A DNA stretch of 57,839 bases, filler included, from Sphacelaria rigidula (lineage: Eukaryota), in assembly GCA_964200075.2 (NCBI GenBank). It is 6 parts of 6 records of this genome, joined end to end, with 100 filler letters (N's around TTAATTAATTAA, not from the genome) between each part and the next. Parts side by side here need not be neighbours in the genome. Positions count along the whole stretch, not along the records: positions 9,658 to 19,214 come from CAXNAA020008226.1; positions 19,315 to 28,871 come from CAXNAA020008227.1; positions 28,972 to 38,528 come from CAXNAA020008228.1; 3 more parts are not named here. One strand, given 5' to 3'. Below, one piece after another: positions 11,915 to 46,081 of the stretch. Position 1 is the first letter of the stretch. Each line of letters opens with the position of its first letter. Below the pieces are notes generated by a model. The model was not told the DNA's origin. It saw only the letters and a list, made by a program, of their open reading frames with translations, and made no database searches. The translations under genes were made by a program, and so were the position numbers.

Positions 11915-11943
11915 AAAAGTGCACCCCTGCGGTGGCATTGCTC
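11915..11943. mobile_element. Solo TIR of the Sola2-like MITE family A
   Basis: AAAAGTGCACCCCTGCGGTGGCATTGCTC matches the right TIR at 12885-12913; no partner TIR was found. Confidence 0.6.
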
Positions 11944-12656: not shown

Positions 12657-12913
12657 GAGTGACGCTACGGTAGGGGTACAGAAATAATTTCTGAGATTAG
12701 AATTGTTAGGAGCCTCTTATCTCATCCAAAACACGACTTATAAAAATATGCGAGAATACGCCAGGATTACTATTCCAATGTACTGAGGATATCCCGAATA
12801 AATCTGCAAACGAGGATGCCCTGACCCGTATTCTTGTGAGTCTAGAATCGTTAGGAGCCCCTGAACCAGACAAAAGTTCGCGAAAAAAGTGCACCCCTAC
12901 CGTAGCATTGCTC
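12657..12913. mobile_element. Complete 257-bp MITE, family A, with GAG..CTC termini and a 4-bp TSD GTTT; Sola2-like
   Basis: Left TIR GAGTGACGCTACGGTAGGGGTACA; right TIR (reverse complement) GAGCAATGCTACGGTAGGGGTGCA. GTTT at 12653-12656 and 12914-12917. Confidence 0.85.
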
Positions 12914-13760
12914 GTTTGGTGAAGGAACAATTGTTCATTGAATGTTTGGAAACCGTAGAAGCATGCACGTTGGGTGAAGAAAACAAAATCGTCGAGCGTT
13001 TCACCGAGAGGACGGTAGCTGAATTGTTTTTCGCTGCACTATGGTTATAGTGGAGTACGTTGCGTAAGCAGCGTGTTGGCTGTGCTGAAGCACGGATTCC
13101 CAGAGCGGTACCTTGGGTCGACGTTGGCAACCTCATTTTGCGTTTCGACATTGTCAGCGCCCGCCGAACCTGGCTAGGGCTGCCCCATAAGGTGACCGGC
13201 CACAATAACATGGCGCGCAAGACGTCCGGCAATTGATAAGAAACGTACCTTGCGGGATGATGGCTGTAGTCATTTTCCAACTACAAGGTACCAACGTCAG
13301 CGCAATCTGTCCCGATCCGCCGTGTGAGGCGGGCATGGTCACGCCGTGTGGTAGACGTTCGTTGCACAGTTGGCCAAAGGGATCACATTTGCAACTTGAA
13401 CTCCTGTTGTAAGAGTTCGCTGAGCATGTACGAACGGTAGTCAACACACTGTGATGTCAATATCACGCCCAAGATGGCAAGCCCTGACCACCTGGGATAT
13501 CACAGTGGCTGTTAGTTTTGGTACTGCCCTGTGTGAACGGAGTGCACGAACAACGGCTGTATCTGTGAGAGGCGAGGTATTCGAGATAGTTTTTCTAGTC
13601 TCCCTAATCTCGAATGAGCTGCAGGATTGACCGCTGAGGATTCGCGCATAGACTAGCTTCATTTTCACGCGCACAGATACCCAGTCTATTTTGCTTCCAC
13701 AACTAAGGGACTCCGAGATCTAGTGAAGACACGCCTTCACGCAACGCTCCTTGGACTGTC

Positions 13761-14371
13761 TCAGATGTGCCTCATCGGGCTTACGGCGCGCCCGCTGACT
13801 TGAGGGAGCTTTCCACGCAGCTCAAGCGTCCCCTCTGTACACACCTGCCTACCACTGCTAGTCGGTATTGTTGTATTGCTAGCCGCGTTCGCAGCTTCAC
13901 GCGCACACAGCCAGCCGATACATTTCAACAGGTTCCGAGCCTCGATGAGGCTTACTGTTTGAGTGTGCAAAGCTTTAGAGCGCCCGCACACGAACAGCAT
14001 CAGAATCTGATAGAAAATTCCAAAGGGAATAATACGATGGCGGTGCAACAGATATTTGAGCCCCGACTTGATGGTTAAAGAGTTGACTCCATTCTCAGGC
14101 GACGGTGGCCATGTCTCTCACCGGTGACCTGTTGATCCTCCTCAAGCTTCTCCGTCACTTCTCTCTGGTTTGGGGTCGGTACTACAGATGCTCCATCCGA
14201 GTCATTATATACCCTGATACCCGCAACCGGTATTGGTTCGTCAATCGGTCCCAAGTCATCATTGTCTTCTTGTAGGTAGCGCCTTGCCATCATGTCCGAC
14301 CTGGACGTGTTGTCGCAGCTTGCCGTAAGCCCCCATAGTACGGCAATGACCACTGCGGCCAGAGCCAGCAT
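13761..14371 (-). pseudogene. Possible frameshifted relic of a secreted or signal-anchored protein; weak resemblance to the start of an O-fucosyltransferase-like domain
   Basis: Hydrophobic N-terminus MLALAAVVIAVLWGLTASC, then RRYLQEDNDD..HRRL. After a 1-nt shift near 14098 it reads ENGVNSLTIKSGLKYLLHRHRIIPFGIFYQILMLFVCGRSKA. Confidence 0.3.
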
Positions 14372-15861
14372 CGTGCTGCCCCGCCGTATGCTTCGCTCCC
14401 GCTTTCCCTCCTTCCCTGCCTGTAATATATCGTGTAAGGTTCGGGTTTGTTTCTCAGGCTTCAAGGCGTAAGGCATTCGAATTTGGAAGCTCGAGCTAGA
14501 GGCCTTCCTTGATGTATTTGTGGACCGCAACGTCCAAGGTGTGCAGTGTCAGCGACCGTGACAGTGAAGTTAGTAGCAGCCGCGGTGAGAGGTGGTCGCA
14601 GCACTAAATCGCGGTCAATCGTGGTAGACAGTAGTGCCAGCAGCACCGGTGGAAGTAATGGTACCACCACCATTATTCATCGTATTAACACGTGTATGTG
14701 AGGGCTGGTTAGAGGTGGGGGACTCCACGAGCCGTGGTGGCTTTATTCTTCTTGCATGTGATATTGATATTCTCCTCTTCCTCAAACCGCTGGATAATAG
14801 GTGGAGAACGTGCCTTAGTGTGGGGAAAACGCGCGGACCCTACATTACACGCAGTTCCTTGCATAACTTTCTGTTGTGTGAAATATATCATCACTGGCCG
14901 TCTACTTTCTCTTCATGCCACTTTCTTGATTCGTGTTCTCCGTTTTAGAGGTAGGTCTCCTCCAAGAACAACCTTTTGACGCAATTAGCGCGGAGGTAAA
15001 TGTGTCTCTTTCATACACCAGCTGTAATTTTCCTGACCCGATTCAAAGATGGACAGGTGAGATTTCACTTCTGCCATTCAGATTCCTACAAAGGTAGTCA
15101 AGGAGGTCGGGTTTCCACTTCTCCATCCGTTTCCAAAATGATCATGGGAGAGTTGTGCCGAGTGCAAAGACGCCCAGATTCCAGTGTTGGTCGATGTGAC
15201 TGGAATATGGCAACACACAATGCTGTACACGTATTGGAGATCATGATATAGTCATATTCCGGTGAAAGGTTGAAATCATGAAGCATCGTAGCATCGGCTG
15301 CGGACTCCAGAGCTCATGCGCTGAGGCATGCAAGGAGCCAAAGTTCAGGACACTGGGTGTGGAGACTTCATACATAGCGTCTCCCTTGTTGTGCGGGCGG
15401 TCTCGCTCTGTCTGTCGATATTTTATGACGATTGCAACTCATGCGAAACCGTATGTGTGGCACGAGTTCTTAGCCGGAAGGTTGGGGGCGGGGCGAGCCG
15501 TATCATTGGTCATCCACACTCGAGGTTAGCGCCGGTAGCCCAGGCATGACGTGCACACAGTAGACGCCATGCGACATATCGGAGGCTGCGGGTTGCTGTA
15601 CGCCTACCTAACAGGCGATTAAGGGAAAAGCGGTTAGGATGAGGCCTGCGAAGAAAAGGCGAAGGCGACCGTTTCCTCGAACCAGGGCATGTCGTTGTCA
15701 TCAGCAGCTCGAGGAAGAAAAACGAGCGAAGGCAACCACGACCTGACAAAAAGAGACAACGAGGCGCCATCTTGGAAACGTTGAGAAGAAGGGGAACTGT
15801 ATTGAAAGCTTAAAGAAGAAAATAGAAGGTCATCATAGTCAGAACGATTGGGAGGGGGGGG

Positions 15862-15962
15862 GGTATGCTCATGATCTTGCATGACGTAGTCATATGACCA
15901 TTGACCTCGCATTCCTACAAAGCCAGAACGGAGCACGCCGGGGTTTCGCCGGACCAGGCTAG
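15862..15962. repeat. Partial copy of a dispersed repeat flanked by G runs (also at about 34870-35130 and 36420-36685; short end at about 3405-3450)
   Basis: Shared core CATTGACCTCGCATTCCTACAAAGCC..ACGGAGCACGC..CGCCG(G/A)ACCAGGCT. Confidence 0.7.
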
Positions 15963-15989
15963 GGCGGGAGAGGGGAGGGGGAGGGGGTG

Positions 15990-16385
15990 AGGACATTTTT
16001 TACCTCGCCGAGTATAAACGGGGCGAACAGCAGCGATGATTGTCCGCCGGAGATATCATGCCGCCTACAATGGTGGCGGGCTGATGTTGTGGCGGCACAC
16101 TGGCAAATTGCAATCGAGCTGGAAACGCCACAGGTCAAGTTCGAAGGGCGAAGAAGGGTCACTGCCTGTGGGGACAAGGACGAGGAGCTCAGCGAGATGA
16201 ACATAGCAAGGCCACTGTCTGAACACAGCTTTCTTGGCAACTGGGGTGATCCACAGGTCACGAAATGCGGGTGTAATTCCGGGCCGGCTGCTGCCAAACA
16301 TGGTTGCAGAACGTGTACGTGCAGGAAATATACAATCAACAGTTCTGTATCCGTTGCCCCTGTGGGCGCGCTTGTGTGAATTTCG
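15990..16385 (+). mobile_element. Academ-like transposase C-terminal fragment (end of the XPG-like region plus Cys-rich finger), frameshifted
   Basis: DCPPEISCRLQWWRADVVAAHWQIA resembles the PPT..L.LH..RA...A..W motif. It is followed by KCGCNSG..GCRTCTCRK(frameshift)..FCIRCPCGRACVN. Confidence 0.5.
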
Positions 16386-17060
16386 GGGGGACGGTGCCAG
16401 CCGCGGCGCACGTATCCCCGGCTGCCGGCGCCGGGGAAAAGGAAGGGCCCAAGGTTGGCATGGGAACCGGACGTGCAGGTGCCGAAGCCGCAGAAAGTAA
16501 TGCCACAGGGGAAAGTCACGGAGGGAAGAAATATATGCGGCGAGAGGTTCAGGATCTTGGTGGGGACACCCCAGCGATTCATTGCGGATGCTGACGCGGG
16601 CAAATGAAGTAGTGGAGACAAGGGACGTCCCCTAGGAGGCGCCGCCGGTCATGGCGGTGCCACCAGTACAGCTGCAGCAGCCAGCTTCGCCGAAGCTGGC
16701 AGGAGCGTCGGAGCTGGGAAGGACGGCACAGCCGGGCGGGACATCGGAGCTGGGAGGGACTCCAGAGCCGGGAGGACTAGATGATTTCGACTCTGCTCCA
16801 CCGACTCCATGACCGCTACCGGAGAGAGGTATTCCCCATCAGCGTCGAGCGACATTTCCAGCGAAGAGCGCAGACCATGATGGTGAAGATGAGCGGGGTT
16901 CTCTTCAAGACTTCGCGATGAAAATCAGTGGGCCCCGGACAACACAACTAATTATTTAGGCGTTTATTTACCGTCGGTGAGTAGTGAGCCGTCTATAGAC
17001 GGCGACCTCTCAGTGGAGGAGAGCGACTCGTCTTCATTGGACGAAATTGTTTTACTTCCA

Positions 17061-17310
17061 GACACTTTCTACGATAGCCCCCCCCCAAAACCAGCTAAAA
17101 GTGTCACAAAACAAATTGCCATAGAACGCCTGATGTTCGGGTTCAGGCTACACGAAGCGCTTCATGTTGGCGACATTGGCTAGAACGAACCCAAGTGTGG
17201 GAATTGCCAGCTTCTCATTGTGCTCGGCTTTTCCCATTTCGATTTACGTGAAGATATTGCCTCCCAAAACCATGCACTTTTGGGGGGGGGGGGCTATCGT
17301 AGAAAGTGTC
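17061..17310. mobile_element. Complete 250-bp MITE, family B, with about 30-bp TIRs GACACTTTCTACGATAG(C)nAAAA and a 4-bp TSD TCCA; nested in the Copia relic
   Basis: The TIRs are perfect apart from C-run length. TCCA occurs at 17057-17060 and 17311-17314. Confidence 0.9.
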
Positions 17311-17601
17311 TCCAACGGCAGCGCGGACTGCGGCGCGGCAACTCGAGTAAAATCTGTTTGGATCTGGAAATGGCGAGGAACTTGGACAAACCAGAGCGCG
17401 GACGCGAGCGCTCAATCAAGAAACATATGGGCTCGTAACCATGTTAGGGCCCGATGAAGAGGGTCATGGCCTGCTGGCGGCACAGGAGGTTATCCGTAAG
17501 CCGGGCGAGCTCCCTAAATGTGTCATCAAGGAAGCGGGGCCGGAACCATAAGCCCATCGGACTCTATCCTCGTCGCCTCATATCCGAGTATTGTGATGAA
17601 C

Positions 17602-17631
17602 AAAAAGTGCACCCCTGCCGTAGCATTGCTC
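17602..17631. mobile_element. Solo TIR of MITE family A inside the Copia relic
   Basis: AAAAAGTGCACCCCTGCCGTAGCATTGCTC. Confidence 0.65.
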
Positions 17632-19214
17632 CCTGGTGGAGTGTAGTTTCGGGTAATGCTTGATAGATCCCTGTGTGTTCCGACTGAGGGTGGCTGAAGA
17701 CATTGTGGCGACGATGGTCTTTCATGTGGACGATATCATCATGGTAGCAGCTGCTGAGGAAGTGACTGAGAAAATAGTCGGTGCTTGGAAAGGTTTCATG
17801 AACCCTACTCATCAAGAGTGTGCTAAATCGTTTCGACGTCTCGAAGACTAGTCCCATCCCGCTGCCCCTTCTTTAGACTTCAGGCATGCGAGCGAAGGGG
17901 AGACCGTGGTGGGTGTGCCTTTCCGTGAGATCGTGGAGAGCTTGATGTGGATAGCGAAGCAGACGAGGCCCGATATCACGAACGCAGTTCGGGCAGTCGC
18001 TCGGTTCTCTCATGAACCGAAGCTGACTCACAACAAGGCGGCACAGAAAATCTTCGAGTTTTTGAATGCTACGTCGGGCTTAGGTTCACTTTTCAAGAAA
18101 AGTAGTGACTTGGGAGGTAGTAAGTTGGAGTTTTATTCAGATACGTACGTTGACGCAGACTACGTTCGCAAGGCAGAGTACCGACCTTCCGTTTCCGTTG
18201 TAGCTGTTTGCTGTGGACATACGCTAATGTCTTGGTTTTCTAGGACACAGAAGTGCGTCACCCTATCTACTACTGACGCAGAGTATGTAGCAATGGCAGA
18301 CGGTGTCAAGGAGGCCCTGTATGTGAGGGGGATTCTGAAGTTGCTAATGCCCAGTTTGGGGTCGAAAAGCATTGGCGTTTTTGAGGACAACAAGGGGGCG
18401 ATAGACTCAGCTGGAAACCCCTTAAGCTAGTCAAAAAGCAAACACATTGATATATACGGTACCATTTCCTCAGGGAGATGGTTGCTAGCGGTGACATATC
18501 CGTGAAGTATCTTCAATCAAAAGAACAGCATGCGGACATTCTAACCAAAGCCAAGAGAATTTTGAAAGGCACCGTGATTTTCTCTCAGGCAGGGTGTAGA
18601 ATCCACCGTTTTGATTTTTTGCTGTGGTGGACCCCATCATTTGAGATGAGCGATGATAATAGGGAGTTCATCCTACTGAAGTTTATTCGGCGGTGATAAG
18701 GTTATGCTCGGACTTGTTAGTTGATAAAGCTAGGGAGGGTGTTCAGTATAGTTGATCTACAAACAGAAGCCAGAAGCATGAGCGGGGGAATCGCGGGGTA
18801 TTCGCATATTCTGGCAAGGTTACTGAGAACGTTCCTTGTGGTTAGACAAAGTCAAACTGTTCCGAGTTCCTGTATTATTTTGGGAATTGTGCGGTCGATC
18901 TTGCGACGCTGTAGATTGGATCGTAGCCTGTCGTGACAGGGTAGTGCTCTACGCCCTACTCCCTTCACTCGTCTCCCTCACCTCTCTTCACCGAATTTCC
19001 CACATGTGGATAGTAATAATGAAGAATCACAACACATTATGTTCTTCTTCCCAGTTACTGGAAGTGGGGCAGTCAGCTGTTGACAGCCGATTTTCGAAAA
19101 TGGGGTTGAACAACAAAATGAGGTTCAACTCAAAAGTCGTGCTTTCCCTGGCCTAAATTCATGACAAATGACTTTCATATGGATCCCCCCATCCCTCCCG
19201 ACCTCCTTGAAACT

Positions 19215-19314
19215 NNNNNNNNNNNNNNNNNNNNNNNNNNNNNNNNNNNNNNNNNNNNTTAATTAATTAANNNNNNNNNNNNNNNNNNNNNNNNNNNNNN
19301 NNNNNNNNNNNNNN
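19215..19314. other. Artificial 100-nt contig linker
   Basis: N run containing TTAATTAATTAA. Confidence 0.97.
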
Positions 19315-20226
19315 GACGAGGGAGGCGGGGGGGTGTGGGTGACACGCGCTGTGGGGGGGGGGGGGGGGAGGGTGATCTGGGAACCACCACATAGGAGGGC
19401 AAAATTCCCACAACTGTCCGTCGAGGATTCATCTCTTCATACAAGCAACGAATAAGTACGCCCCCCCCCCTCACAGGTCTGTGATTTGAACTCTTATTCG
19501 TTCCACTTCTCTCAGACTTGACCGTTGTCCTTGACGGGAAGGCGAACACGCCACCTTCTCGTACAATCACTACTGTGACTTCACTAGCCCCAACCTCACG
19601 AGCCTGTCTGCGCAGGTGGATAATGACCCTTCTTCGTGCCAGTACTCTTGTTGCGCTTGGCCCTTATCCTGTGAGGGGAGGGGTGAAGCTCGTCTTTTGC
19701 ACGCGAAGGAGCCACATCGCTAAAACGTTTCTTCTGCAAGCAGCAAATTCCACCTGAATGCTCGTGGTTATAGCACCACACACGCATTCACACCTCACGA
19801 CAACGTGTTGACGGACGTACTAGTGCACAACAATGAGTGCGTGAGGTCGTGTAGCACACACATAAATCCCTTGCTCCGCGAAGCTGACCTCTCCCCTCCC
19901 CCCCCCCCCCCCCCCCCCCCCCGCCCCTCGCACCGTGGAATCACCAGTCAATAGCTCGTCATATCCTCCGCCGTAGAAGGCGTCAACATTGAAATCACCA
20001 GCAGTAATGCTCCATCGAGTACCTCACTCTCCATCGAGCTCCTCACCTTGTCTTTACCCGTCTCGTCCGTTACTAGCTTTGAGCTTGACTTCGGCTCACG
20101 CGAATTGCTTCTTCGTCCAGGCGCGTTATCTCGATGCAAGAGTTCTTCTCTGTGCGCGACCATTCCTTGATCGGAGTCATGCCATGATCGGGGTTCCGTA
20201 CTTGAGCGCAGACGTTCCTAATTGAA

Positions 20227-20432
20227 GGGCTCCTGAAGTTAGGAACTACATGAGAATATGCGTCAGGACATTCCCGCTTTCAAATTCACTCCGGATATCT
20301 CTCATTGTAATGCTAATCGTGGCGTGCTGCCACTTGTGTCAATAGTCGTTTTTTGGATGAGATAACGGGCTTCTAATAACTCAAACCTACCTGAGCAGCA
20401 ATGTTTAGTGTACTCCTACCGTGGCGACGCTC
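20227..20432. mobile_element. Diverged, truncated, inverted copy of MITE family A
   Basis: Collinear with the reverse complement of 12657-12860 (GGGCTCCT..GGATATC..TTTTGGATGAGATAA..GTAC.CCTACCGT.GCG.C.CTC). Confidence 0.75.
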
Positions 20433-22329
20433 ATTGATCAAGTGGTTGTCGCATATTGACGGATCTATTATTTAGACGTTAATTGAAGACTGCATTCTGG
20501 TACGCCTTATTTTACGGTCTCTCTTCCGTGCCGTTTTTTTGAGACGCTCACCTCGTATTCCCGCAAATATCTGGTTTCTAAAAGAGGTTAGGTACACCTC
20601 AACACAGTAGAAAGAAACTCATGTGAGAACCGTCGGTAACGGTCAGATGAAAACATCATCGAAATAAATGATATGGGGCACGAAACGGTCGCGGTACAGC
20701 GGGGATGAGAGGTTTCACGAACAACGGAGGCTCATGAACAGTGTGATGCAGTACAGCACACTCACTTCTTTTAATGTGTTGTAAGGCGTCGTGTGCCCAA
20801 GTCCAAGTCGCCGAATATTCAGCATTGAAAGCATCATGCCACCATTCGCTGCGACGAGCAACGTCTCGACATATTGGCTCCTCCTAGAGGAGCAATGCAG
20901 TCGACTTAGCCCCTACCCCCTACCGCACGTGGGATGACTCCGAGCGATTCCGAATCGTGTACGGCAACATTTCGATTCACGCACCGGCGGTTTGTGTGGG
21001 AATGGATATCGCGGGTGGCCACTGATACACATTATCCGCATCTTGAAGAGTTCCAAGGTTATCGACGAGTTGAGCAGCATGCGTGCAGCGTGAACCGGGT
21101 TGCAAAACGGATGTCCCAGGATAACAGGCGGGTTCGTTGCCGCAATGCGTGCGTCATGGGACACTGCTCAGAATGCGACAAGAAACAAGGCGATTCTCCA
21201 ACTGCTCTCAACATCGAGTATGCTGCGAGGACGCCGCTGATGGTCCAGTTCTCGCTGCAGAACAAGAGATGAAGTTTGAAATTTTCGTCACGGTCAACGA
21301 CGGAAATGAGATTCGACCACAGCAGCGAAGGGCGCGGCCTTCCGCGCCCCGAGCACAAGGAACTAGCGATGGGGGTGGCAAATGGTAGTCACAGGGGGTG
21401 AGCACGTCTTCGACTCCTCGCAAGATGAGTCTCAATCTTCGTCGATACGTACACTGGTCGCTGTCACCCAGCTCCTCGCCCCTTACCTCCTCCCTCCCAC
21501 CCTGATTTGTGAAGCCAGGATTGAAGGTTCAACAGATATTGCCCGTGGTCAGTGGTTGCACGGTAGGGATGCACGGTCTATGCCGCATATCTCCGGGATT
21601 GGACACTTTGGCCCGTATGATTGTCATTGAAATTCTCCTAATGGTATGAGTCTGAGCAGCTCTTGGTGCACCCTTTCCCTGACACCACTCTGCCGGCTTG
21701 TCAACCGACCCCGCGAAAAGGTCGTCGAGCTGCAGAGCGTCACCCCATGCCTCCTCCACTCTTCCCATTGCTCTCAGCAGCAGAGTGAACATCGCACACA
21801 TTCCACGAATCGCTGGTTGACCGTCACCTCACTCTCGCGACCAGACCGCGGTGTTGATATGACTCGTCCGTCCCCTCCCCTCTCCTCCTGTCCATGGTTT
21901 TTGCAACCGGAACTGAGCGAGTACTTCATCGTATACCTGATTGATTCATTGATTCATTGGTTGTCGCAATTTAACTGACCCTCCAGGGGTCGAGCCGTGG
22001 GCTCATGATAGATGCACCCAAGAAAAACGAAACTGAAACACGTATTGAGAAAAAAAAAAGAAGGGACATAAAAACAAAGAGGGGGTCGAACAAAACGACA
22101 TAGCAGAATAAGTCGTGACGAAAAAGAAGGTAATGAAAATGTCAACATAAGCAAAGCACAGAAAGAAATGGCCGACCTAAAACAAGAAACAGGGAAAAGA
22201 AGAGGAAAGTACAAAGCAAATAAAATAAAATACAATGAAACGACGTGGAAAAAAAGAGGAAACAACACCTGTAGCTCGTAGAGATCTGACATCGAGCGTG
22301 AGTATCGCACCTCACTCCACCGGATGTCC

Positions 22330-23300
22330 TGCAGCCATTATACTACCGTCGTCAACATAGGCGGTGGTCTGGACAACCGGTTCTGCGGTAAACGTTTTTG
22401 TGGGCGTGAAATCCATTGCACTCCGCCTCTCCCCCCACCGTCGACAGAAAATGCTGCAGCGCGGGGCTTTCAACGAGAAAATAGGCAGTCTCGGAGAAGG
22501 GTATGTCGTACTGATCGCGGACTTCAGGAGCTCTACACACACCACGAGTAGGACGGGGTGCAATCTCAGCACTAGAAGCGTAACTCCACCACTCTGCTTC
22601 CTACGTCGATCATCTTCCGACTTGACGACAAGGTCTGAGTATACTCGCTTGTCGTGATGAGAGCGACAACAGCTCGAAAGGCAATGCCTGACTACAGCAT
22701 GCTTTCAAAAACCTACTCCAAACGAGAATACCGTCGATACTGAAGAGGGTCGGAGCTGCATAACTGGTTCGTGCCACCTTTTTCACCGATTACTGCGGAA
22801 CGCAGTTCGAACCTGCGACGTCGTTCGGGTTTGTCGGAGATTGTGGTAGACACGTCGTCGACCAACCTACTCGCCGGCTCCACGTAGGCGCACGCTACTA
22901 TGGCAACTGCTACGGCAAGTGCCTGTCAGGCAGCGAACGCGGCGTGGTTAAGACAGTTTCTGGGCGAATGCTGATACTGGGTTCGTTCGATCTTTTCCAG
23001 AAGCTGACGCGTGATTTTGACTTTGAGCTGCACGAAGCCAGTAGCACAGAAAATCATGACTTCTTCGGCATGGTGGGCGCTGGTCAAGTGCGTATGGCGA
23101 GAACTACTGAGGGTTAGTGTCATTCCAACACGTGCCGGCTCAAGAAAATGATTCTTGACCCTCCGTTCACCACTCAGATAGTGGCTTTCCGTGCGTGCAT
23201 CCCGCGTTTGTGTCGATTACGGCGTACGTGAGCCCTGGGTCGAGGAACGTAGTCTTCGTCCCATCATCGATGGAATGCTTCATGGCTCATTATCGCGTTC
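22330..23300 (+). mobile_element. Sola2-like DDD transposase pseudogene (core); a degenerate coding-like tract continues to about 24800
   Basis: Read across frameshifts and stops: QRGAFNEKIGSLGEGYVVLIADF/QELYTHHE*DGVQSQH*KRNSTTLLP..YSLVVM.D..ATFFTDYCGTQF..YYGNCYGKCLSGSERGVVKT..GSRK..RAS.VC. This matches the DF.ENY..QD..QS.HW / SDG...QF / HGK..D..GG..K pattern of Sola2 transposases. Confidence 0.75.
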
Positions 23301-26300
23301 GGTCTTGCTGGAACATGTCCTTTGTGCGGAACAGGGCGCAACCGAACCAAACGGGGCCATGAACGTTTTAGCGTTCACGAAACAGAAGAGTACCCTTTTG
23401 GGGGAGCGGGCGATTATGTTCGTCTCATAAGCCGGGGTGGCTGCAACACGTTCGACGGTGCGCTCACCACGGATGCCCACCAACGTCACCAGTTGCATGT
23501 CTCGAAGCCGTATCGCCGCAACCTCCACCCCAGGAGTGGTCGCAGCGTACCAGCTGTCTTGCGAGTGAGTGCCAAGCCTCAACCCTGGTTCATCAAACCC
23601 GATATTCCTTGTAGGAACACCATTCAGGGGAAGACATTCGTTCAATTAATTATACCGGCGTCGGAAAAAGTGGATCAGGTCGAATTACATCCCCAGCCCC
23701 AAACATGATATCACGATTTCTCGTCAACGTCCCCAACATCGCGCTGAATTCATACTTGGCTAGATCGTCAGACCCGGCCTGAGTGTCACAGGTCGTGTGG
23801 CGATCGCTACCTTTGTCGTGGCGAAGGTGCCACAGATGCCGCAACGGAGCGGAGCACAGGTGAGTCCACTAGTCCATCGTGGCGTCATTTCTGCACATGC
23901 GGAGTGCGCGCGACGTGCTCACCGAGAGGAGCCAGCCAGCGAACGGTAGTTTGAAATCGAAACTGCCTTCAAGCGCATGCAAGATGGGCTGCCTTATGGG
24001 TCCACAGCGCTTATCCGCATCAACGGTAGCGAAAACGAGAACAAGACGTCGTGCACGTGGTGATCGCGCGCATAGCACCAATCTTATGGGGGAGGGCCCT
24101 TTCGTCGGATTGGATGTTCAATATCGGTGACATTATGGTCTGGATCTACGATTCCCAGCAGGCGAGTAGCGGAGGAGATCGATGGTTCAAAGTGTGCTCA
24201 GACACAGTCAGCCACAGCAACCAACGCGCTGTTCCACTTGCCCCCATCACGGCTCTGGGGATGCCGATGACTTCGTACATGACGCAGTGAGCGACGGATG
24301 CCTCGACCTGGACGCTCAAAATGCCATCGATGAAGAGCGCTCGTAGCAAGGTTGTTTTGTTCTTCTTTAACCCATCGGAAGCATTAGTAAATCACCCTTG
24401 TGTGACTCTCGAGGTATACGACTTTGACCGGGGCCCGCTCCCTGAGCACAGCATGTTCCCCGAGGGCCCCCTGCTCGAGCGAGGGATCCGCTTGGCGAGC
24501 GACTAGATTGCTCAAGGGAGAGGTAGTCGGGCAGTTTTTCGAAGGCGTTCCTCGCGAATACATATATCAGGTGGTGTGGAGTGGGGGAACGCCAGGAGAA
24601 AGATCTCTCGCGGATCTCCCCGGGTGCGATCGAAGAAGGCGTCATCAGGCATCTGTTCTTGTACCACGAGTGATAAACGCCCCTCCATCAAACTCCCAAT
24701 GCCGCAGTGTATATATAGGATACGACGATGACGTACGTGGACGGGAAGCGCTCAAGGGAACGATGCCATGGCGGGTGCAGATGTGAAATACGAGCTGGGC
24801 CGGCCTAGACGCGGACTGAGGCTCTGAAAGCGATATCTCACCATTTGTTTTAGCTGAAGATGCAGTGTGCTCCACTGGAATTGTAGGCCATCTTTTCTTT
24901 TCCGGCGGCCTCCTCGGAAGCGCTGCATTGGAGAACCGAGCCAGTCTATCACATGACGTGCTTGCAGGCGTCCAGTTATACTGATCAATTTCAGTGGCCC
25001 GCTCAGCCGGTTAAAAAAAAACAGGTAATGCTCGTTTGTAGTTCTTGATTCTTGGTGATATGAATCGAGCCGACCAACGCTTCCCATATTAAGCTGGTTT
25101 TCTATTCACCAGCTACTCTCGATGCCAAACTGGGGGAGGTTACCGCAGGGGCAGTCGGTATAGGCGGAATATAGTCGGCAGCATGTAAAACAAATACACA
25201 AGCCGAGTGCACAAGCAGCTGATAACTCTCAAGCCTGGAATCGGTTTCTCTAGTGTCGCCCAAATGATGCGGCTCATGCAGTTATTGTCGCCATCGGACA
25301 GTCATTTTCTCGCATGGTATTCTTCCTTTGCACTCGAAAGTGCTAGAGTCGATGGGTGTTGGGGGGGGGAAAGCGGGTCGTGCTCAGGAAGCAATCGTCA
25401 AGTTGGTATTGTCGGGGTAATACGGAGTAAATACCCCGTTTATCAGGAGGATGTTAATGACCGCCATCGGTCCAAAGCATAATGTATTTCGGTTCTGACG
25501 CAACCAACATGTAAAATTTCAGATAAAACGTTTTTTACTTGTTCACGAGAACGATTGGGATCGATTTCATGCGAGAAAAACGACCTAAGAGTCAGAACTT
25601 GGGGCTGTGTAGTCGCAGGACCCCCGAAAACCGGCCACCCTGTATATCGTTGAAGATTGAGTGGAGGGATGGTTTCCGTTCGGAATGTGGAAAATATGCC
25701 AGTGTCTCCCAATCTCCAAACTTTGAGATCAAACATTCACTATCATGAGCAGTGGAACGCGAAACACTGTCAAAAATCGCCGACTGCGAACAATGACAAA
25801 TATCCTCGTATTTGGCCGGCAATTACCATACTTCTATACGTTGGACCTGATACACATGATCGCATTAACAACATTTTGTATTCACTTGCGAGGCGATCGT
25901 CGCGGAGAAACATGCGCATAATACTTGCATTCACTCACCCGGTGCCAAATGCAAAATGCTTTCTTCAAAACATTCAAGCAATCACTGAGGATTCGTTCAC
26001 AAATGGCCATACCTTGATTCACGTGAGTGCATAATATACTCTCAACACTTTTATTTGAAAGCCGTAGTGTGTGAAGGCAAACATGGTGCCTGTACTTTCC
26101 CACGCGGTTGCGGAGTTTGTTCGTATCTAGCGGCATATGAAATCGCGCCCAGCCAGTCGCGTGCGCGTGCCAGTGGTTAAACGGCACAGTACACAGTAGC
26201 ACGCTACGATAGCCTTAATCTCGCAATGATGCGTAGTTATGAGAAGTTGAAGCTGGGATCAGCGCTCATGTATGTGCCCGCGGCGAAGAGCTAATGCAGA

Positions 26301-27910: not shown

Positions 27911-28031
27911 CGCAGATGCCGTGAGCGCTACACTCCGCGTCTTCTTTGGTACCAACCACCGCAACGTGGACCGCGAACTCGGGGTCTGTTGTGAGCAACG
28001 GCAACGACCCCAACTCCGTTAAAAACGTAAC
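27911..28031 (-). CDS. Exon of a stramenopile-type EGF-like repeat protein (VTFLTELGSLPLL..GTKEDAECSAHGIC), possibly a pseudogene; probable upstream exon at about 28210-28341
   Basis: CAG acceptor and GTGAGC donor. V.F..E.G.LP.L...GTKE..ECS..G.C motif. The upstream segment ends in phase 0 at a GTAAGC donor. The downstream continuation (STGMNQC, about 27760) looks degenerate. Confidence 0.6.
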
Positions 28032-28833: not shown

Positions 28834-28871
28834 AGACTACTGACCAGTCAGCGCTGACTTGTCAGTAGTCT
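28834..28871. repeat. 38-bp near-perfect palindrome at the contig end
   Basis: AGACTACTGACCAGTCAGCGCTGACTTGTCAGTAGTCT, with one mismatched pair. Confidence 0.8.
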
Positions 28872-28971
28872 NNNNNNNNNNNNNNNNNNNNNNNNNNNNN
28901 NNNNNNNNNNNNNNNTTAATTAATTAANNNNNNNNNNNNNNNNNNNNNNNNNNNNNNNNNNNNNNNNNNNN
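28872..28971. other. Artificial 100-nt contig linker
   Basis: N run containing TTAATTAATTAA. Confidence 0.97.
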
Positions 28972-30103
28972 GGGGGGGGGGGAAGCTCGCATGGGGTCTC
29001 GAACCGACGAAATTGGTCCTAGCGCAACTTTTCCCCCATATATTTTCGTACTCCGGATATTTGTTTGTGCTTCTTGATAGATTTTGACCTGGAGCCAGGC
29101 ATAACCGGGTTCAGAACCAGGTGATCTAAAACCAGTTTTTTGCGAGGATCCCATATATATATATATATATATATGCAAAGAGGTGGTGGGGGCCCGGCAA
29201 ATCGAGATTTACTAGTTCCCCCGCGTTTTTGGCAAAACGGTATATTCGACATAACTCGTCACCAACGTGTCCGTGAAACCTTAAGGAAGGTTCATTCGAA
29301 AGCCATGGTCCGTAGCTTTCGAATGGTATGCATTTTGTTGGGTAAATACCCTGGCTCCATAGGGAAATATACCAAGTGGCCTGTGGGCGGGTCCGGGAAA
29401 ATTACCACTAAAGCGATGTTTTCAGACGTGAGAAGAAAAAAAATGTACGTAGCCGGTAGCGGGGGACATATTGAACAAAATACTTTGGGCCTCTTCGACT
29501 CTGTGCGAAGATCGACGTGTACAGCCGAAAAGGAGTGATTTTCCGTGAAGAAAAAAAGTGGCACGCGTGCTCAATTTTGTCTGGCCGCAGCTCTGCGCAA
29601 AAAGGCGATGTGGTTGAATATGTACTTGCTTCTCGCGAAAACCATCATACTTGGGTATTTCCAGAGCTGAACAATCCCGAGTGCTCTCGAAGCATGTGTG
29701 CATCATACGCAGGGAACGTTCGGGCTCAGACCGACTCCCATCGAAACAAAACACGTTTCGGACGAGTTATCGCCGGTTCGGATCACCAAATCCAGGATTT
29801 TTCACGCCTGATTGCTAGAAAGTGAGAAAAGAGACAGGTTGACCGCTGGTGAAAAAAAGCCTCTGCTTGTGCTTTGCGTTATTTCATGTGCTCGGGCTGC
29901 GCGTACATGGGTTGCAACTCCGGAAACACAGCCTAAGGATTGATTCATGTGGTACAAATCAATTACACTAAAATCAAGTAATTTCCAGACGAATCAATAA
30001 TTTGTCCGAACCTTGAAACAAAGCACGCCTCCGTTGCCGGTGTGTTCTCGGTCTGCTGACACTGGTCAAGGTTAGCGTCACCATCCGACAAAAACAAAGC
30101 ATG

Positions 30104-30127
30104 TCAACCATCATCGCGTACTGCCGC
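30104..30127 (-). CDS. MTHFR: Tentative MTHFR terminal exon (AAVRDDG*)
   Basis: CCTTGTTAG acceptor followed by 7 codons and TGA. Inferred only. Confidence 0.3.
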   Translation of the reverse strand, partial: AAVRDDG

Positions 30128-33100: not shown

Positions 33101-36100
33101 TGAAGTCCCAAACTGTTCATACCCTTGCGGGTTGTGTTTGTATACCGTATTCTACGGTAACCATTCAGATTCATCAGTTTGAACTCGGTTACTGGTGAGG
33201 CGCGAGAAACAACGCTCCCAATCATTACTGGGACTTGTGGGGTCACGTAATTTCCTGGCAGGACACAAAGTGTTTCAATCATCACTTTGTTTACATAGTA
33301 TGTCTATTTTGCCACTGGCGATAATTACACTAACTCAACCCTAACGTTAGTCCTGATCCTACACTTGACCCCAACGAAATGTAGACGATGAGCCCTCGGG
33401 CACAGGGGGAGGGGGGGGGGGGGAACCATACTGGAGACATCGTCACAGCGCGAACGGAAGTGTGGCTGGGGGCAATGGGGTAAAGGGCCGCGTAGCGCCG
33501 CTGCAAGCAACAAACGTCGTATTCAAGAAATGGGAAGCGTCCGTAAGGGTTCAATTAGGGCTTCTGAAATACGTCATTCGTCTTTTGTATATTTTGCTTC
33601 GGATATTTAAACGTGCTGATTTCAGCTTTGTAAGGGAACACGTGCACTACGGGGGAAATAAAAAAAGATGCAACTGATATTTCGTCATATTACCTTGCAA
33701 AGTGAAAATAAGTAAAGGGAAAGAGATTGCACATGTAGGGTACAAGTTCTTTCGCGCGGGTTTCAATCTAATTGTTGCAACACCTTCGACCCACAAGTAA
33801 AGGCGATGCTCGTCATTTCAGCTGGAACTAGTTGCTCCGCTTCGTGCGTCACCGTTCGCTTCGGCACCCCGGCTCCAATGCATGAAGCACCGAGTAGACT
33901 TTGGGTCTAATCGTCGTTGAACACGACCATACCGCTGCCACGGTTGCGGTCATCTGAGCTGCGGCTGCTCATACTGTGATTTTGTACTTGGCCTTCGCGT
34001 CTCCGTGTGCTGGGTGAGGGCTGCGAGCGAATTCTACAGTCGATCGGCCACAGAATAATCCACCGACATACATCACTCTCGCACGAAAAATATTGCCACG
34101 GTGCGGTCAGACTACTTATATCAGATGAGGGGATGCGACGGGTCAAGGATGTTTCACTCCGTGCACAAAGCAAAAACCAGCACCGCGTCCCCTGAGTTTC
34201 ATACAACAAAAATCAGCACCACCTGTATATTTCTCATGTACTCGGTCTCGTGCGGCACTGCGGAACATATATTATATTATATATATATATAGGTTACGCA
34301 CCCCACCGGAGTTTTGTTGTGCTGCAATCCGGAGGTCGTACCCGCCCAGCACTTAGCAAGCGTGCTCAGTCACGTCACAGGAACAAAGTAGCATGGCCGA
34401 GCACACAGAAATCACCTCACCACACGTGGAAGGGTTGCGGTGCGATACAGTCTTGACGCGATTCACCGTCAGTTGAAAGCGGTCGCGGGTCTGAAAGACG
34501 CACCTTCGGCAAAATGGTGGTCCTTGGAAGCTGCAAACAAACAACCATATGTTGTTCTAAAAACAGCTCCTCGGAATACGCACTTTTTACTGCCGGTACC
34601 GAAATGGTTCATTTTATAACAGGGTGTGCTGATGCGCCTACTGATGCGCCGCCCAGGGCATAGCCAATACTTCCACAGTCCTGGCTAGTTCGCACCTTTT
34701 CCAGGTTGAGAGTGTAGAAATGGAGGCCAGGAGCTCCTGCTGCCATGAGGTCGTGGCACACCTGCGTCCCAAACTCTACACCAAACGCCTTCAGAGCCTT
34801 GTCATCGTCCTGCAGCCACGACAACAGCGCGCACAAGGGATCGGGAGGAGGGCGGGGGAGGGGTCCCATTACCTCGCATGTCGTGGTCATGAGGTCATTG
34901 ACCTCGCATTCCTAAAAAGCCGGGACGGAGCACGCCCAATTATCGCCGAACCAGGCTCGCACTCCATCACCGAACGCGAAGCACCATGATGCGTTCGGCG
35001 AGTCGCATAAAGGGTGAGCTGCATCCTGCTGGGATTGTTTTGCTCGAAGCGTACTACTTATCTTGCATGTGGATGTGACAGCCTCGCATAAGTTGTTTTC
35101 TTATTTTTTGGTATCCCCACTTCAAGACAGCCACGGTTACACATTGCCTCATGGGTGTCTCACCATTGGTCGGCGGGGGGGGGGGGGGAATAGCGGCGTC
35201 GAAGGATGATGATGTGTTCGACCGAGTGCGATGGCACGAAATACAGACAATAGACGGGAGGCGAGTACCGAAGCATCACAGGTTGAAAAAATATTGGGGG
35301 GTAGCAATTGCGCTTGTGTGTGTGTGTGTGTGTGTGTGTGCAGGGACGATATTTCCGATGACAATTATTTGGATGTCGACAATTCCGGGAACAATCATCT
35401 CATATTCGGACCACTAGAGGCACTTAATAGCAGTATCAGGCATGTGCCGACCGTTTTCACTCGGGTGCAAAAAAAAAAAAGCACGCCCATCCACACACAA
35501 GAAAACACGCTGGGCACATCAAAACGAATAAACTCGCGTCGCCACAAACGTGGTTGAAAACATCTGGTGGCTGGGTAAACGCCTGGTGGCCCTCCTTTTT
35601 CACGAGCCCCAGCCCCAGCTTTTTCCCCCACCCCGCATTCCTTTTGATGCCCTCTCATCCAATGTATGGAGGTGGGGAGATGACTCAAGGTTGATATGTG
35701 GGCGTACAGTACTTCCGACGTTTCCTGCTCATGACATCTCTCTTCCCTTCTCTCTCTTCCTTTCTTGGAGGCACGCACACCTTGATTTGCTCCATCTTGG
35801 CCATAAGTTCTGGGGGCACCCTGGTGCGGCAAAAGCCGGTCATCTTTATGAAACCGCCCCACGCGTTGATGCACATCATGCCCGGCAGAACAGGAACCGT
35901 TATTCCCCTGCACTCCGAGCATCATTTTCCAGCCGTACCCAAAAAAACGATTTGCCATGACCGCACATGACCAAAAACGCACAGAAACATACACCAATAC
36001 GTACAGAAGGGATGGGGAAAATGCTGGGTTGAGAAATTTAACAAGCAAGGAGGGTTGGGCTAAGCTGGGCCGTTTGAAATCTGAATTTCCATGCGCGTGA

Positions 36101-36997
36101 CTCATTCAACCGCTCACGATCATGAACGACAATGAACCCACTGCACGCATATCACATGTTATAAAAATACTGGAGCTCCAAACTATTGTAGATCAAAGGA
36201 CGTTTGAGCTGTGGACATTGCGCATGGTCCTCCTCAAGCACCCAACCCTAACCGCCTGTTTTCCGAGTCTTGAATGTCGAGTGATTCTAAATCATAGTCT
36301 AGGTTGGACCCTACCGTTTAAGGTCCTCAATGTCAAATACAGTACAGTACGTACACACAGTATATCACATGTACAATCACGTAGTGAACAAGAGTGGCCG
36401 CGGGCGACGCGGAGGGAAGCATGATTTCGTGTGCTGTAGTCATATCACCATTGACCTCGCATCCCTACAAAGTCAGGGCAGAGCACGCAGAGGTTCCGCC
36501 GGACAGGCTCACAACTCATCACCACGTGCGAAACGCCGTGACGTGTTCGGCGAGTCGCATGAGGGGTGAACTGCATCCTGCCAAGATAGTTGCGTTCGAA
36601 GCGTACTTATCATCTTGCACAGGAATGACGGCCTCGCATGAGTTGCTTCAGTTTCTGGTATCGCCACTTCCAGAGACAGTCGGCGAAGGGGGAGGGGGCG
36701 AAATGGTTCAGCCGGCTTCAACGCGGCATCTCAAAACAACGTTCATGACACGAGCTCATTCAGGCATGCGCTGAGGGATCAAAGTTCTTGTTTTTTTTTA
36801 GTATCCGGTGTAGTACGACAAAATCTCCACGGAAAATACGGGGATGAGAGTCTTCGCTTCTATTGTGCACCTATCGCGGCACGCCTTCACGAAGGAACCG
36901 TAGACGGCCGTGTCGAAAAACATCTGCGTGATGATGAAGTCTGCCCCGGCGTCCACCTTCTTCTGTAGGTACTCCATCTCTAATTCGAAATCCGCGT
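30104..36997 (-). CDS. MTHFR: Methylenetetrahydrofolate reductase, 3' part: join(36997-36871, 35907-35781, 34809-34696, 32200-32123, 31479-31393, tentative 30127-30104)
   Basis: GT..AG introns with matching phases (2,0,0,0,0). The protein reads ADFELEMEYLQKKVDAGADFIITQMFFD..ACRDRGITVPVLPGMM..FCRTRVP..IKDDDKALKAFGVE..GAPGLHFYTLNLEKVTIGILGRLG, giving the MetF/MTHFR motifs K.DAGADFIITQ.FFD and GLHFYTLN. The 5' exons were not found on this contig. Confidence 0.92.
30888..31061. repeat. About 170-bp imperfect hairpin downstream of the last well-supported MTHFR exon
   Basis: TGGTAAATATATGCAACAGACG..ATGTACTGGGT..GCAAC pairs with GTTGC..ACCCAGTACAT..CGTCTATTGCATCTATTGACCA across a loop of about 15 nt. 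Confidence 0.75.
31393..31479 (-). CDS. MTHFR: Probable MTHFR tail exon (MLGMIKSSKNKSVAAEAGDDQAPSSGIMQ)
   Basis: CAG acceptor and GTGAGG donor; 87 nt; open in phase 0. No homology support. Confidence 0.55.
31930..32095. repeat. Intronic tandem duplication, about 87-bp period
   Basis: CTTAGGCTAGCTCAACTC..ATGAACATCCAG starts at 31941 and again at 32028. Confidence 0.8.
32123..32200 (-). CDS. MTHFR: MTHFR exon (VTIGILGRLGMLGDYKLAEREEDTAQ)
   Basis: AAG acceptor and GTGAGA donor; 78 nt; supplies the expected last helix (IL..LG). Confidence 0.8.
34696..34809 (-). CDS. MTHFR: MTHFR exon (DDDKALKAFGVEFGTQVCHDLMAAGAPGLHFYTLNLEK)
   Basis: CAG acceptor and GTGCGA donor; 114 nt. Confidence 0.93.
34870..35130. 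repeat. Dispersed repeat copy in an MTHFR intron
   Basis: Collinear with 36420-36685 and partly with 15862-15962. Confidence 0.8.
35315..35340. repeat. (TG)13 microsatellite
   Basis: Seen directly. Confidence 0.9.
35781..35907 (-). CDS. MTHFR: MTHFR exon (GITVPVLPGMMCINAWGGFIKMTGFCRTRVPPELMAKMEQIK)
   Basis: CAG acceptor and GTGTGC donor; 127 nt. Confidence 0.93.
36420..36685. repeat. Dispersed repeat copy in the next MTHFR intron
   Basis: TTGACCTCGCAT..GTTCGGCGAGTCGCAT..CTGCATCCTGC..TCGAAGCGTACT is shared with 34870-35130. Confidence 0.8.
36871..36997 (-). CDS. MTHFR: MTHFR exon (ADFELEMEYLQKKVDAGADFIITQMFFDTAVYGSFVKACRD)
   Basis: TAG acceptor and GTGCAC donor; 127 nt. Confidence 0.93.
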
Positions 36998-38467
36998 CTA
37001 AATGTGGCACGGAAAAAGAGAGAGGGGGGGGAAGCGCACGGGGGAGGGGGAAAAACATGAGAAACACTACAATCGTGAAAATTCAAAGTTTTTAGAGAAA
37101 TATGCTGTTCGCTGCCGTGTTCGACACTGCGTATCAAGCGCGGCGTTACGCCTTCGGCGGTGCTACCTGCTCACTGCACAGCGGCAGGGTGAAGCCCGAC
37201 AAAGCACATCGCATGACGTCACACCCTTGGCCCATCCCTGTGCTGCATTGGTTTCGCGCTGTCCTACGAGTATGCAGTTCGCCGCATCATGCACGCAACC
37301 GCTTGTATCTGCGGCCAACGTGTACGTGGGATATCACACTCCGCTACGTCCTACATCGCTACGACACATCTGGTGAAGCTCTCCTTGCTGCAGCTACTGC
37401 GTTCGTCTGCCCCAGGTCAGGGCACGCGGGAGTGAAAGGCCGCCTCTGCTGCTGTAATGGGCGACTGTATCTCGGGCGAAGCTGTATGGGAACACAGCCG
37501 CCATGGCGCGCGAAAGCGGCCTGTACCATTCCATACCCTGGAGGTTTTTGCTCACTGTTGTCTCGGAGTTGGGCGTTGCAGTTACCGACTCAAGGTCCGA
37601 ATATTACTACATAAATTATAGTCGGCAATATATTTGAAACTGTGCGCAGTACACTTCCAACAATGTGTTCGTACGGACGGTAGAAATTTTCGTCCACGGT
37701 CTGGTGTGTTTCCAAATATAATGCAGAATCTGGCACATTTCCATACATAATCGGGCGCGGTGAGATGGTGTCAAAACTCACGACATATATTATGAGCGAA
37801 CTGCAGGTGAGGCAATCGCCAAAATATTCACCTGCAAACTCTGCTCCAATGCACTGTAAGTTGATATCGCCAGAAGGATACTACCATAACTACCTTGCCG
37901 ACTGCCAGACTGTCAGGACGTGGGATCCGCCAGCATTGCTGCTGTCTGTACGGAGATGTTGCCCACTTGTCGGGTACGTGGGAGAGGGTTCACGGCAGAA
38001 CGCAGCGGTTGCGTGAGAATACCGCCACATATATGGTGGGGCCTAAACGCTGCTTCTCTTCTGGTTTTCTGTGAGTATTCATCCCTAACGAGGCGAAGAT
38101 TGACGATGAAGCCGGAAGCGTTCGTTGCGGTCTGCGAGCCTGACCGGGATTGTACCTACCATCACCGTCATCAGACAGGAGGTGGTGAAAACAAATGAAT
38201 CTGGTGAGAATGATATCCACGGTTTCAATGCAAACCGGGCCCTCGGCGCGTTGTGCTGCCATGGCTGCGGCTCCGACACCTTTCTCTACTGCCCATCAAC
38301 CCGTCCTCCAAGTTTCGGCGTTATCACAAGCGAGGTGAGGATTTCCTTGGCGTCCAACCTCCACAAACACCGCCTCCACGAGATTGAAAAGGAGTAAAAC
38401 TGGTCGTCAATCTTGTTTCCCATCCTCCCCCACCCTCCCACTTTCTCTTTTCAGGTAGACTCGAGTC

Positions 38468-38528
38468 GAGCCATCCTACGATAGGGGTGGGGGTATTTTG
38501 GGGCATTTGTTGCTCGAAATTTCGAGTC
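38468..38528. mobile_element. Terminus of TIR family C, truncated by the contig end
   Basis: GAGCCATCCTACGATAGGGGTGGGGGTATTT matches the reverse complement of 21-59. Confidence 0.55.
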
Positions 38529-46076: not shown

Positions 46077-46081
46077 TGTAT

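What the first reader, a model, noticed from the sequence alone, without database searches (positions are those of the whole stretch)
12657..38528. Three unrelated TIR families share one terminal code: GA(G/C)-N5-CTACG(A/G)TAG
Seen directly, the termini read GAG-TGACG-CTACGGTAG (12657), GAG-CAATG-CTACGGTAG (12913, rc), GAC-ACTTT-CTACGATAG (17061 and 17310), GAG-TCAGC-CTACGATAG (59, rc) and GAG-CCATC-CTACGATAG (38468). Variants occur at 11943, 17631 and 20432. The quasi-palindromic 9-mer always starts at position 9 while positions 4-8 vary. Both complete copies have 4-bp TSDs (GTTT, TCCA). Established: Sola elements make 4-bp TSDs and Sola2 ends are GRG..CYC. Inference: this is a bipartite cleavage-site plus binding-site code used by several MITE families that depend on a Sola2-type transposase like the relic at 22330-23300. 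Nine such ends on four of six contigs suggest a large radiation.
Basis: partly seen in the sequence, partly recalled or inferred. Interest (0 to 1): 0.72.

Follow-up and report, generated by a model that had tools for sequence, protein, structure and literature searches.

The report
Sola2 mini-transposon radiation in brown alga
The shared end motif marks thousands of short, non-coding jumping-gene copies (MITEs) of the known Sola2 class in a brown seaweed genome; it is an inherited end sequence that has drifted along with several related transposases, not a new recognition code, but the set offers natural pairs for working out how Sola2 enzymes recognise their ends.

Summary
GASN5CTACGRTAG occurs 6 times in the window (0 expected) and 9,682 times in the genome (control 143). 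It forms 1,312 inverted pairs 224-294 bp long. TSDs are 4 bp (33 of 50 perfect, 47 of 50 within one mismatch) with no target consensus. The window relic is a broken Sola2 transposase gene on the + strand. The genome holds at least eight Sola2 lineages, and the 3' ends recovered (A, C, G, H) are of this type.

The interpretation needs correcting. Positions 4-8 are not a free spacer: T7 is found in 251 of 255 ends, and the other positions are family-specific. The palindromic 9-mer is not universal: family F6 (1,477 ends, one in the window) uses non-palindromic CCGAGATAG and matches the end of transposase lineage A. F2 and F6 bodies are homologous. At least seven families exist, not three.

Best reading: Sola2 MITEs whose short TIR (GAS-NNN-T-N-C-NNN-GRTAG plus a G or C tract) was inherited and diverged with several transposase lineages. 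Unexplained: six families, mostly with unrelated bodies, are all about 250 bp. No complete autonomous element with both ends was recovered. New members of a known kind.

The parts
1..59 (-). F3 MITE end (GAGTCAGC-CTACGATAG-G tract), rest cut by contig start
   Evidence: 91% to F3 consensus over 57 bp
11800..11943 (+). Old 144-bp MITE of a short family (F7), both ends decayed; TSD GAAC/GAAT
   Evidence: (74-82% to L228-L230)
12657..12913 (+). Complete F1 MITE, 257 bp, TSD GTTT
   Evidence: (92% to F1 consensus); read-out boundaries
17061..17310 (+). Complete F2 MITE, 250 bp, GAC ends with C tract, TSD TCCA
   Evidence: (92% to F2 consensus)
17602..17631 (-). Single F1-type end; only about 30 bp match, no partner end identified
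20174..20432 (+). Old F1-related MITE, 259 bp, decayed ends; TSD ATCG/ATTG
   Evidence: (74% over 177 bp)
21144..21439 (+). Relic of the cysteine-rich exon of a Sola2 transposase (lineage D)
   Evidence: tblastn E 2e-15
22361..23105 (+). Relic of the Sola2 catalytic (DDD) exon, three frame pieces, five stops
   Evidence: E 5e-68; motif comparison
23807..24624 (+). Relic of a further coding segment that follows the catalytic exon in lineages A-D, G and H
   Evidence: (E 2e-65)
38468..38528 (+). F3 MITE end, rest cut by contig end
   Evidence: 87% over 62 bp
57765..57839 (+).
   Evidence: (96% over 75 bp)

Best explanation
These are non-autonomous Sola2 DNA transposons (MITEs) of a brown alga. 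A Sola2 DDD transposase encoded elsewhere binds both short TIRs, cuts at the terminal G, and inserts with a 4-bp stagger at sites of almost any sequence. Repair gives the 4-bp TSD. The shared motif is the ancestral TIR of this algal Sola2 group (GAS-NNN-T-N-C-NNN-GRTAG, then a G or C tract to about position 24). It was inherited by at least eight transposase lineages in two clades and drifted lineage by lineage, each MITE family tracking one lineage or clade: F6 with A; F1, F5 and F4 with the G/H clade; F2 and F3 with no partner found. Shown: ends, TSD, copy numbers, transposase class, and end-to-lineage sequence matches. Inferred: cut-and-paste chemistry (from the fold and family), which positions are bound and which are cut, and which enzyme moved which family.
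For: Motif 9,682 vs 143 control. Of 15,143 bare 9-mers (control 3,827), 64% have GAS exactly 8 bp upstream. 1,312 inverted pairs vs 0 control. 4-bp TSD identity 0.90 vs 0.21-0.30 for other lengths 1-10, 33 different or near-different tetramers. Catalytic exon motifs ADF.ERY / QDEVQSQHW / SDD..QD / TDNCG.QFK / HGKS.SD.EGG match the published Sola2 alignment and the homologue consensus with D82, D171, D218. Model pLDDT 84.5, RNase H/DDE fold. Six lineage-A copies break at one position and read GACTCCTG-CCGAGATAG-CCC (one has A at position 1), 87% like F6 over 60 bp. Two G copies end in an F1/F5-type end (F5 81% over 112 bp; F1 91-94% over 47 bp), and H ends in an F4-like end (86% over 43 bp). 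Closest named homologues are brown-algal proteins.
Against: No autonomous element was recovered with both TIRs and a TSD: only 3' ends were seen, because elements are long and contigs short. No transposase lineage with an F2- or F3-type end was found. F4 matches G ends (85-88% over 40 bp) about as well as H ends, so pairing inside that clade is loose. Five or six families keep the identical CTACGRTAG core across both G-tract and C-tract types, which also fits some cross-mobilisation. No empty site or recent insertion was seen. Copies are 88-94% identical to their consensus, so there is no evidence of present activity.
Confidence: 0.82

Rival explanations
1. One reading: independent families converged on, or were recruited by, one bipartite code (terminal GAS for cleavage, palindromic CTACGRTAG for binding, free 5-bp spacer), and one Sola2 transposase cross-mobilises them.
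For: F1-F5 and F7 share CTACGRTAG at position 9 while F1-F4 bodies are unrelated. Strict spacing genome-wide. No dedicated transposase found for F2 or F3.
Against: T7 invariant and positions 4-8 fixed per end type. F6 amplified to 1,477 ends with a non-palindromic core. End similarity to particular lineages extends 43-112 bp, well past the 17-mer. Two transposase clades at 32-50% identity coexist.
Confidence: 0.1
2. All ~250-bp families descend from one ancient MITE whose body has diverged beyond recognition, which would explain both the shared ends and the shared length.
For: F2 and F6 bodies are collinear homologues (nhmmer E about 1e-8 both ways; 88 of 156 aligned columns identical). Weak global z 2.4-2.7 for F2 vs F3, F4, F5. 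Lengths 246-269 bp in 50 of 50 sampled from the 224-294 window.
Against: No profile signal between any other pair (E >= 0.36). The F5 body derives from the 3' end of lineage G. F7 is 141-144 bp, and a 499-bp element with its own body exists. This rival is compatible with the best explanation and concerns only MITE origin.
Confidence: 0.25
3. The ends belong to another 4-bp-TSD superfamily (Sola1, Sola3, piggyBac, Kolobok, Ginger) or the motif is a host-factor site, and the Sola2 relics are bystanders.
For: MITEs encode nothing, so assignment is indirect. MITE copies are nested inside the Sola2 elements, which could mimic ends.
Against: No TTAA, AWWT or TATA target bias. Homology among transposase-bearing copies stops exactly at the terminal G, with different flanks, and no partner end 250 bp inside.
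Confidence: 0.04

Closest known systems
Sola2 DNA transposons (Repbase Sola2-n_HM, _AAe, _SP, _BM; DFa and PPa elements; PMC3627910)
   Same: Catalytic motif series, DDD triad, cysteine-rich region upstream of the catalytic domain, short imperfect TIRs starting with G, 4-bp TSD.
   Different: The TIR sequence here is specific to this algal group. The transposase genes appear split into exons and lie in long elements. The TSD has no AT bias, unlike the AWWT of DFa/PPa.
Sola2-1_Ec32 of Ectocarpus (PMC12477816, supplements)
   Same: Sola2 in a brown alga, 26-bp imperfect TIR, 4-bp TSD.
   Different: Its termini are GGCGG-CCGCC, it is 4.6 kb with 48 copies, and my term searches of that family table showed no -CTC or -GTC-ended 4-bp-TSD family. 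Here more than 11,000 ends in at least seven MITE families.
Giant Ectocarpus DNA transposons (Sola1-1_Ec32 21.5 kb, KDZ, EnSpm; PMC12477816)
   Same: Lineage A is at least 13.5 kb and kept spreading with fixed nested insertions of other elements.
   Different: That paper reports giants for Sola-1, KDZ and EnSpm, not Sola-2.
MITE families sharing a superfamily TIR core with unrelated bodies (Stowaway/mariner, Tourist/PIF; recalled)
   Same: Many high-copy short families with conserved ends and unrelated interiors, dependent on a few transposase lineages.
   Different: Different superfamily and TSD. The comparison is from memory and was not tested here.

Membership tests
Sola2 | Transposase with Sola2 motif series and D-D-D triad | tested here: met
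   Searches compared by eye with the named Sola2 alignment. D82, D171, D218 nearly invariant in 66 homologues. The query copy itself has G at the third position, most lineage-A copies have D.
Sola2 | 4-bp TSD | tested here: met
   33 of 50 perfect, 47 of 50 within one mismatch. F6: 12 of 18 perfect.
Sola2 | Transposase-bearing elements carry the same TIR type as the MITEs | tested here: met
   3' ends of lineages A (6 copies), G (2), H (1 attached to a transposase, 1 detached) and C (1). 3' ends only.
Sola2 | Complete autonomous element: both TIRs plus TSD around an intact ORF | tested here: inconclusive
   5' ends not reached; elements exceed contig length. All copies seen have stops or frameshifts somewhere.
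Sola2 | Termini GRG..CYC (recalled from Bao et al. 2009) | tested here: inconclusive
   Met by F1, F3, F4, F5, F7 and lineages C, G, H; not by F2, F6 and lineage A (GAC). Source paper not held. Published Sola2 ends seen also depart from it.
Sola2 | Phylogenetic placement among Repbase Sola2 against Sola1 and Sola3 | not testable with these tools
   No Repbase or Dfam library. Pfam has no matching model.
MITE | Short, non-coding, TIR-bounded, TSD-flanked, high copy, uniform length | tested here: met
Sola1 / Sola3 / piggyBac / Kolobok | AWWT or TTAA target specificity | tested here: not met
   Of 33 perfect TSDs none is TTAA and one is ATAT. AWWT as Sola1 hallmark from PMC3845634; TTAA rules recalled.
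   T7 in 251 of 255 ends; F6 core CCGAGATAG, 1,477 ends.
   Needs EMSA or footprinting.

The most novel reading that the evidence does not exclude
The Sola2 transpososome favours an end-to-end distance of about 250 bp, so that five independently assembled MITE bodies (F1, F2/F6, F3, F4, F5) converged on 246-269 bp. In addition one MITE lineage (F2/F6) persisted across transposase divergence by changing both TIR cores together. The genome would then hold a natural matched series of TIR variants and transposases from which the first Sola2 recognition code and length rule can be read.
Probability: 0.25. Interest if true: 0.55.

Novelty: new member of a known kind. Interest (0 to 1): 0.33.

Why it matters
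Sola2 is a known superfamily already reported from Ectocarpus, and MITE families that share ends but not bodies are a familiar pattern, so the finding is not surprising in kind. It is useful in two ways. First, it gives a simple signature for annotating more than 11,000 element ends in this genome, against 48 Sola2 copies in Ectocarpus. Second, no solved structure matched the Sola2 profile by sequence, and matched pairs such as lineage A with F6 against lineage G with F1/F5 make Sola2 end recognition directly testable. The common ~250-bp length is the one feature a specialist might find odd.

Tried and rejected
I first read the relic on the wrong strand (P0001). It still located relatives in the genome, but the homologue search with it (no hits) is void. 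Pfam gave nothing for 5 transposase segments and nothing above cut-off for 8 further proteins. PDB sequence search: 0 hits. Foldseek: no match at E <= 0.001. Atlas search of the downstream segment: best score 0.77, a lead only. A candidate 5' end of lineage A (GAGGTAAG...) was rejected: it is a nested KDZ-like insertion and A continues upstream. The 8.2-kb pair of F6 ends on C1002 was two separate MITEs. The lineage G 5' search found only the two known copies. Metagenome pattern scan: of 119 stretches, the 80 listed had no match of 40 bp or more to any MITE consensus and no pair, so they are taken as chance hits. Sequencing runs: no RNA holder listed; no empty site among the joints shown, 175 more not shown; summed depths are not copy numbers. 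Earlier scan findings: none. The paper defining Sola termini is not held, and a term search for it found nothing.
Full report
Setting. The window is six contigs joined by N spacers, from a 244-Mb, 27,214-contig eukaryotic assembly. The interval given spans three unlinked contigs. The closest named relatives of the transposase described below are brown-algal proteins (Ectocarpus, Cladosiphon, Sphacelaria), so I infer a brown alga.

The observation. GASN5CTACGRTAG has 6 exact matches in the window at the quoted places, against 0 in 100 shuffles. The three variants are also present. Genome-wide there are 9,682 matches against 143 for the reversed control. The bare 9-mer occurs 15,143 times against 3,827, so 64% of all 9-mers have GAS exactly 8 bp upstream. 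Inverted pairs with both ends exact number 1,312 at 224-294 bp, 162 at 274-534 bp and 129 at 34-229 bp, with 0 controls in each; the bins overlap slightly. Among the 50 listed pairs of the short and of the long bin, many are assembly gaps, internal deletions or secondary insertions.

TSDs. For the first 50 of the 1,312 pairs, the 4 bases on each side were identical in 33, differed at one place in 14, at two in 2 and at three in 1. Mean identity was 0.90 for 4 bp and 0.21-0.30 for every other length from 1 to 10. The tetramers show no consensus beyond a weak lack of G at the first position. Contigs of public runs break into unrelated flanks at 12657, 12913, 17061 and 17310, confirming the boundaries. 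The best-matching runs may be the source of the assembly and are not independent. Run X4, which differs at many single-copy positions, also runs into the F1 copy from both sides, so that insertion is shared and no empty site was seen.

Families. The 50 pairs fall into five body clusters: F1 21, F2 16, F3 7, F4 5, F5 1, all 246-269 bp. Copies are 88-94% identical to their consensus. A sixth family, F6, was found from a transposase end. Of 24 F6 hits, 18 had a second end (17 at 247-264 bp, one at 183 bp), 12 of them with a perfect 4-bp TSD; five of the other six were cut by contig ends. Its core is CCGAGATAG, and GASN5CCGAGATAG occurs 1,477 times against 16. One F6 end lies in the window at 57765. 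A seventh family is shorter (141 and 144 bp; a 218-bp member contains a repeated end) and includes window 11800-11943; a 499-bp element with its own body was also seen. With termini removed, only F2 and F6 bodies are related (E about 1e-8 both ways, 88 of 156 columns identical); all other cross-family hits had E >= 0.36 (F5 served only as a target, F7 was not included).

The 'code'. In 255 distinct ends pooled from all fetched loci, selected by positions 1-3 and 9-17 only, position 7 is T in 251. Positions 4-8 read ACTTT in F2, (T/C)CAT(C/G) in F3, CAATG or TGATG in F1-type ends and TAATG or TGCTG in F6. A G or C tract follows position 17. What all families share is GAS-NNN-T-N-C-NNN-GRTAG plus a tract: an ordinary short imperfect TIR of about 24-30 bp with family-specific positions. 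The palindrome is a property of some cores only.

The transposase. My first translation of the relic was on the wrong strand. Aligning 14 related copies showed the gene on the other strand. In the window it lies on the + strand in pieces: a cysteine-rich segment at 21144-21439, the catalytic segment at 22361-23105 with five stops and two frame changes, and a further segment at 23807-24624. The catalytic segment carries ADF.ERY, QDEVQSQHW, SDD..QD, TDNCG.QFK and HGKS.SD.EGG. These correspond to the named Sola2 proteins aligned in PMC3627910 and to the consensus of 66 homologues, with D82, D171 and D218 nearly invariant. The model (pLDDT 84.5) has the RNase H-like fold of integrases and Mos1 (Z 11.3, rmsd 3.2, 141 aligned; Z 11.2, rmsd 3.5, 176 aligned). 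A genome search gave 55 matches in at least eight lineages. G, H and I form a clade (72-78% identity, support 0.99). A, B, C, D (window) and E group apart from it with weaker support and share 43-75% identity. Identity between the two groups is 32-50%. That the coding segments are exons is inferred from their spacing, not shown.

Ends of transposase-bearing elements. Six lineage-A copies break at one position and read GACTCCTG-CCGAGATAG-CCCCCC (one with A at position 1), 82-87% like F6 over 60 bp. Two G copies end in GAGnnnTG-CTACGGTAG-GGGTGCAC, matching F5 over 112 bp (81%) and F1 over 47 bp (91-94%). One H copy ends in GAGTCGTG-CTACGATAG-GGTTGCAC, matching F4 over 43 bp (86%), though F4 fits G nearly as well. 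One C-related copy ends in GAGTTATG-CCGCCGTAG-CCC. B ends are decayed and only roughly of this type. No 5' end was recovered. Lineage A runs at least 13.5 kb in one contig and shares upstream sequence with other copies at 92-94%. It carries fixed nested F3 copies (67-71% and 77-81% to consensus) and a KDZ-like insertion, so F3 was active before A last spread. No lineage with F2- or F3-type ends was found, and the ends of the window's own relic were not identified.

How it works. By established DDE/D transposon chemistry, a Sola2 transposase supplied in trans pairs the two TIRs, cuts at the terminal G and inserts with a 4-bp stagger. The invariant GAS, T7, C9 and GRTAG are the likeliest contacts common to all these enzymes, and positions 4-6, 8, 10-12 and the tract are the likeliest lineage discriminators. 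This assignment is inference; nothing here measures binding. Both ends of a family carry the same family-specific letters, as expected if a diverging transposase selects on both. Cross-mobilisation among families with the CTACGRTAG core is not excluded.

Comparison with what is known. Sola elements have a DDD transposase and 4-bp TSDs (PMC10741241, passages). Sola2 of Dictyostelium and Polysphondylium have 12-21-bp TIRs beginning GAA, GAG or GTT (PMC3627910, passages and supplements S10 part 1 of 2 and S11; supplement S5 opened by mistake). Ectocarpus has one Sola-2 family with GGCGG-CCGCC ends and 48 copies, and giant Sola-1, KDZ and EnSpm elements with fixed nested insertions (PMC12477816, passages and supplement rows). 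In its family table 'CTC termini' and 'GTC termini' hit only KDZ and Harbinger rows, and the three core 9-mers were absent from the five supplements held as text; the consensus library itself was not seen and could hold related families. AWWT as the Sola1 hallmark is from PMC3845634 (passages). PMC4455052, bioRxiv 2024.02.19.579948 and bioRxiv 2021.09.26.461848 were read as passages and do not describe these ends; bioRxiv supplements are closed. The GRG..CYC rule is recalled and its source was not available. Seven literature searches showed no description of this TIR or these families. Repbase and Dfam could not be searched.

Verdict. New members of a known kind; interest 0.33. The open oddity is that six of seven families are about 250 bp long although only two have related bodies.

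Noticed in passing
window 15854-15960 (also 3399-3447, 34851-35067, 36404-36619); L231-L241: A very abundant repeat that behaves like a 5'-truncated retroposon with a poly(C) 3' end: 37 of 39 ends abut a run of G, insertions vary in length and several have clear 12-18-bp duplications. 20 of 39 sit in the G tract right after the MITE core, but the sample was enriched for MITE ends.
   Followed up: partly
L246-L255; nested in lineage A (L068, L062, C1708): A ~330-bp non-autonomous family with GAGGT...TACTG ends and 8-bp TSDs in the copies checked by eye, matching the CAGTA-ACCTC termini listed for Ectocarpus KDZ-1.
   Followed up: partly
L260:1040-2406 and 2881-3315: Open frames of 144-257 aa upstream of the shared 5' extension of lineage A, with no Pfam match; possible cargo genes of a giant Sola2 element, seen in one contig only.
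   Followed up: partly
window 23807-24624; P0004: A 300-aa coding segment follows the catalytic segment in lineages A-D, G and H, apparently missing after it in lineage I; no family match.
   Followed up: partly
F1, F2, F6 alignments: No excess decay at CpG (0.065-0.092 vs 0.072-0.091 at other C/G), in line with the lack of CpG methylation recalled for brown algae.
   Followed up: yes
window 8185-9557: Arrays of a 41-bp unit in both orientations, like the subterminal repeats of another foldback element, cut by the contig end.
   Followed up: no
window 811-1249: A near-perfect palindrome of about 440 bp (arms 84-90% complementary).
   Followed up: no
window 17852-18430, 38776-39456, 40063-40473, 45994-46938: Open frames that look like Copia-type retrotransposon remnants (recognised from memory, not tested).
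   Followed up: no
window 25200-25281: An 83-bp, 71% match to the F2 body without ends, just downstream of the relic transposase.
   Followed up: no
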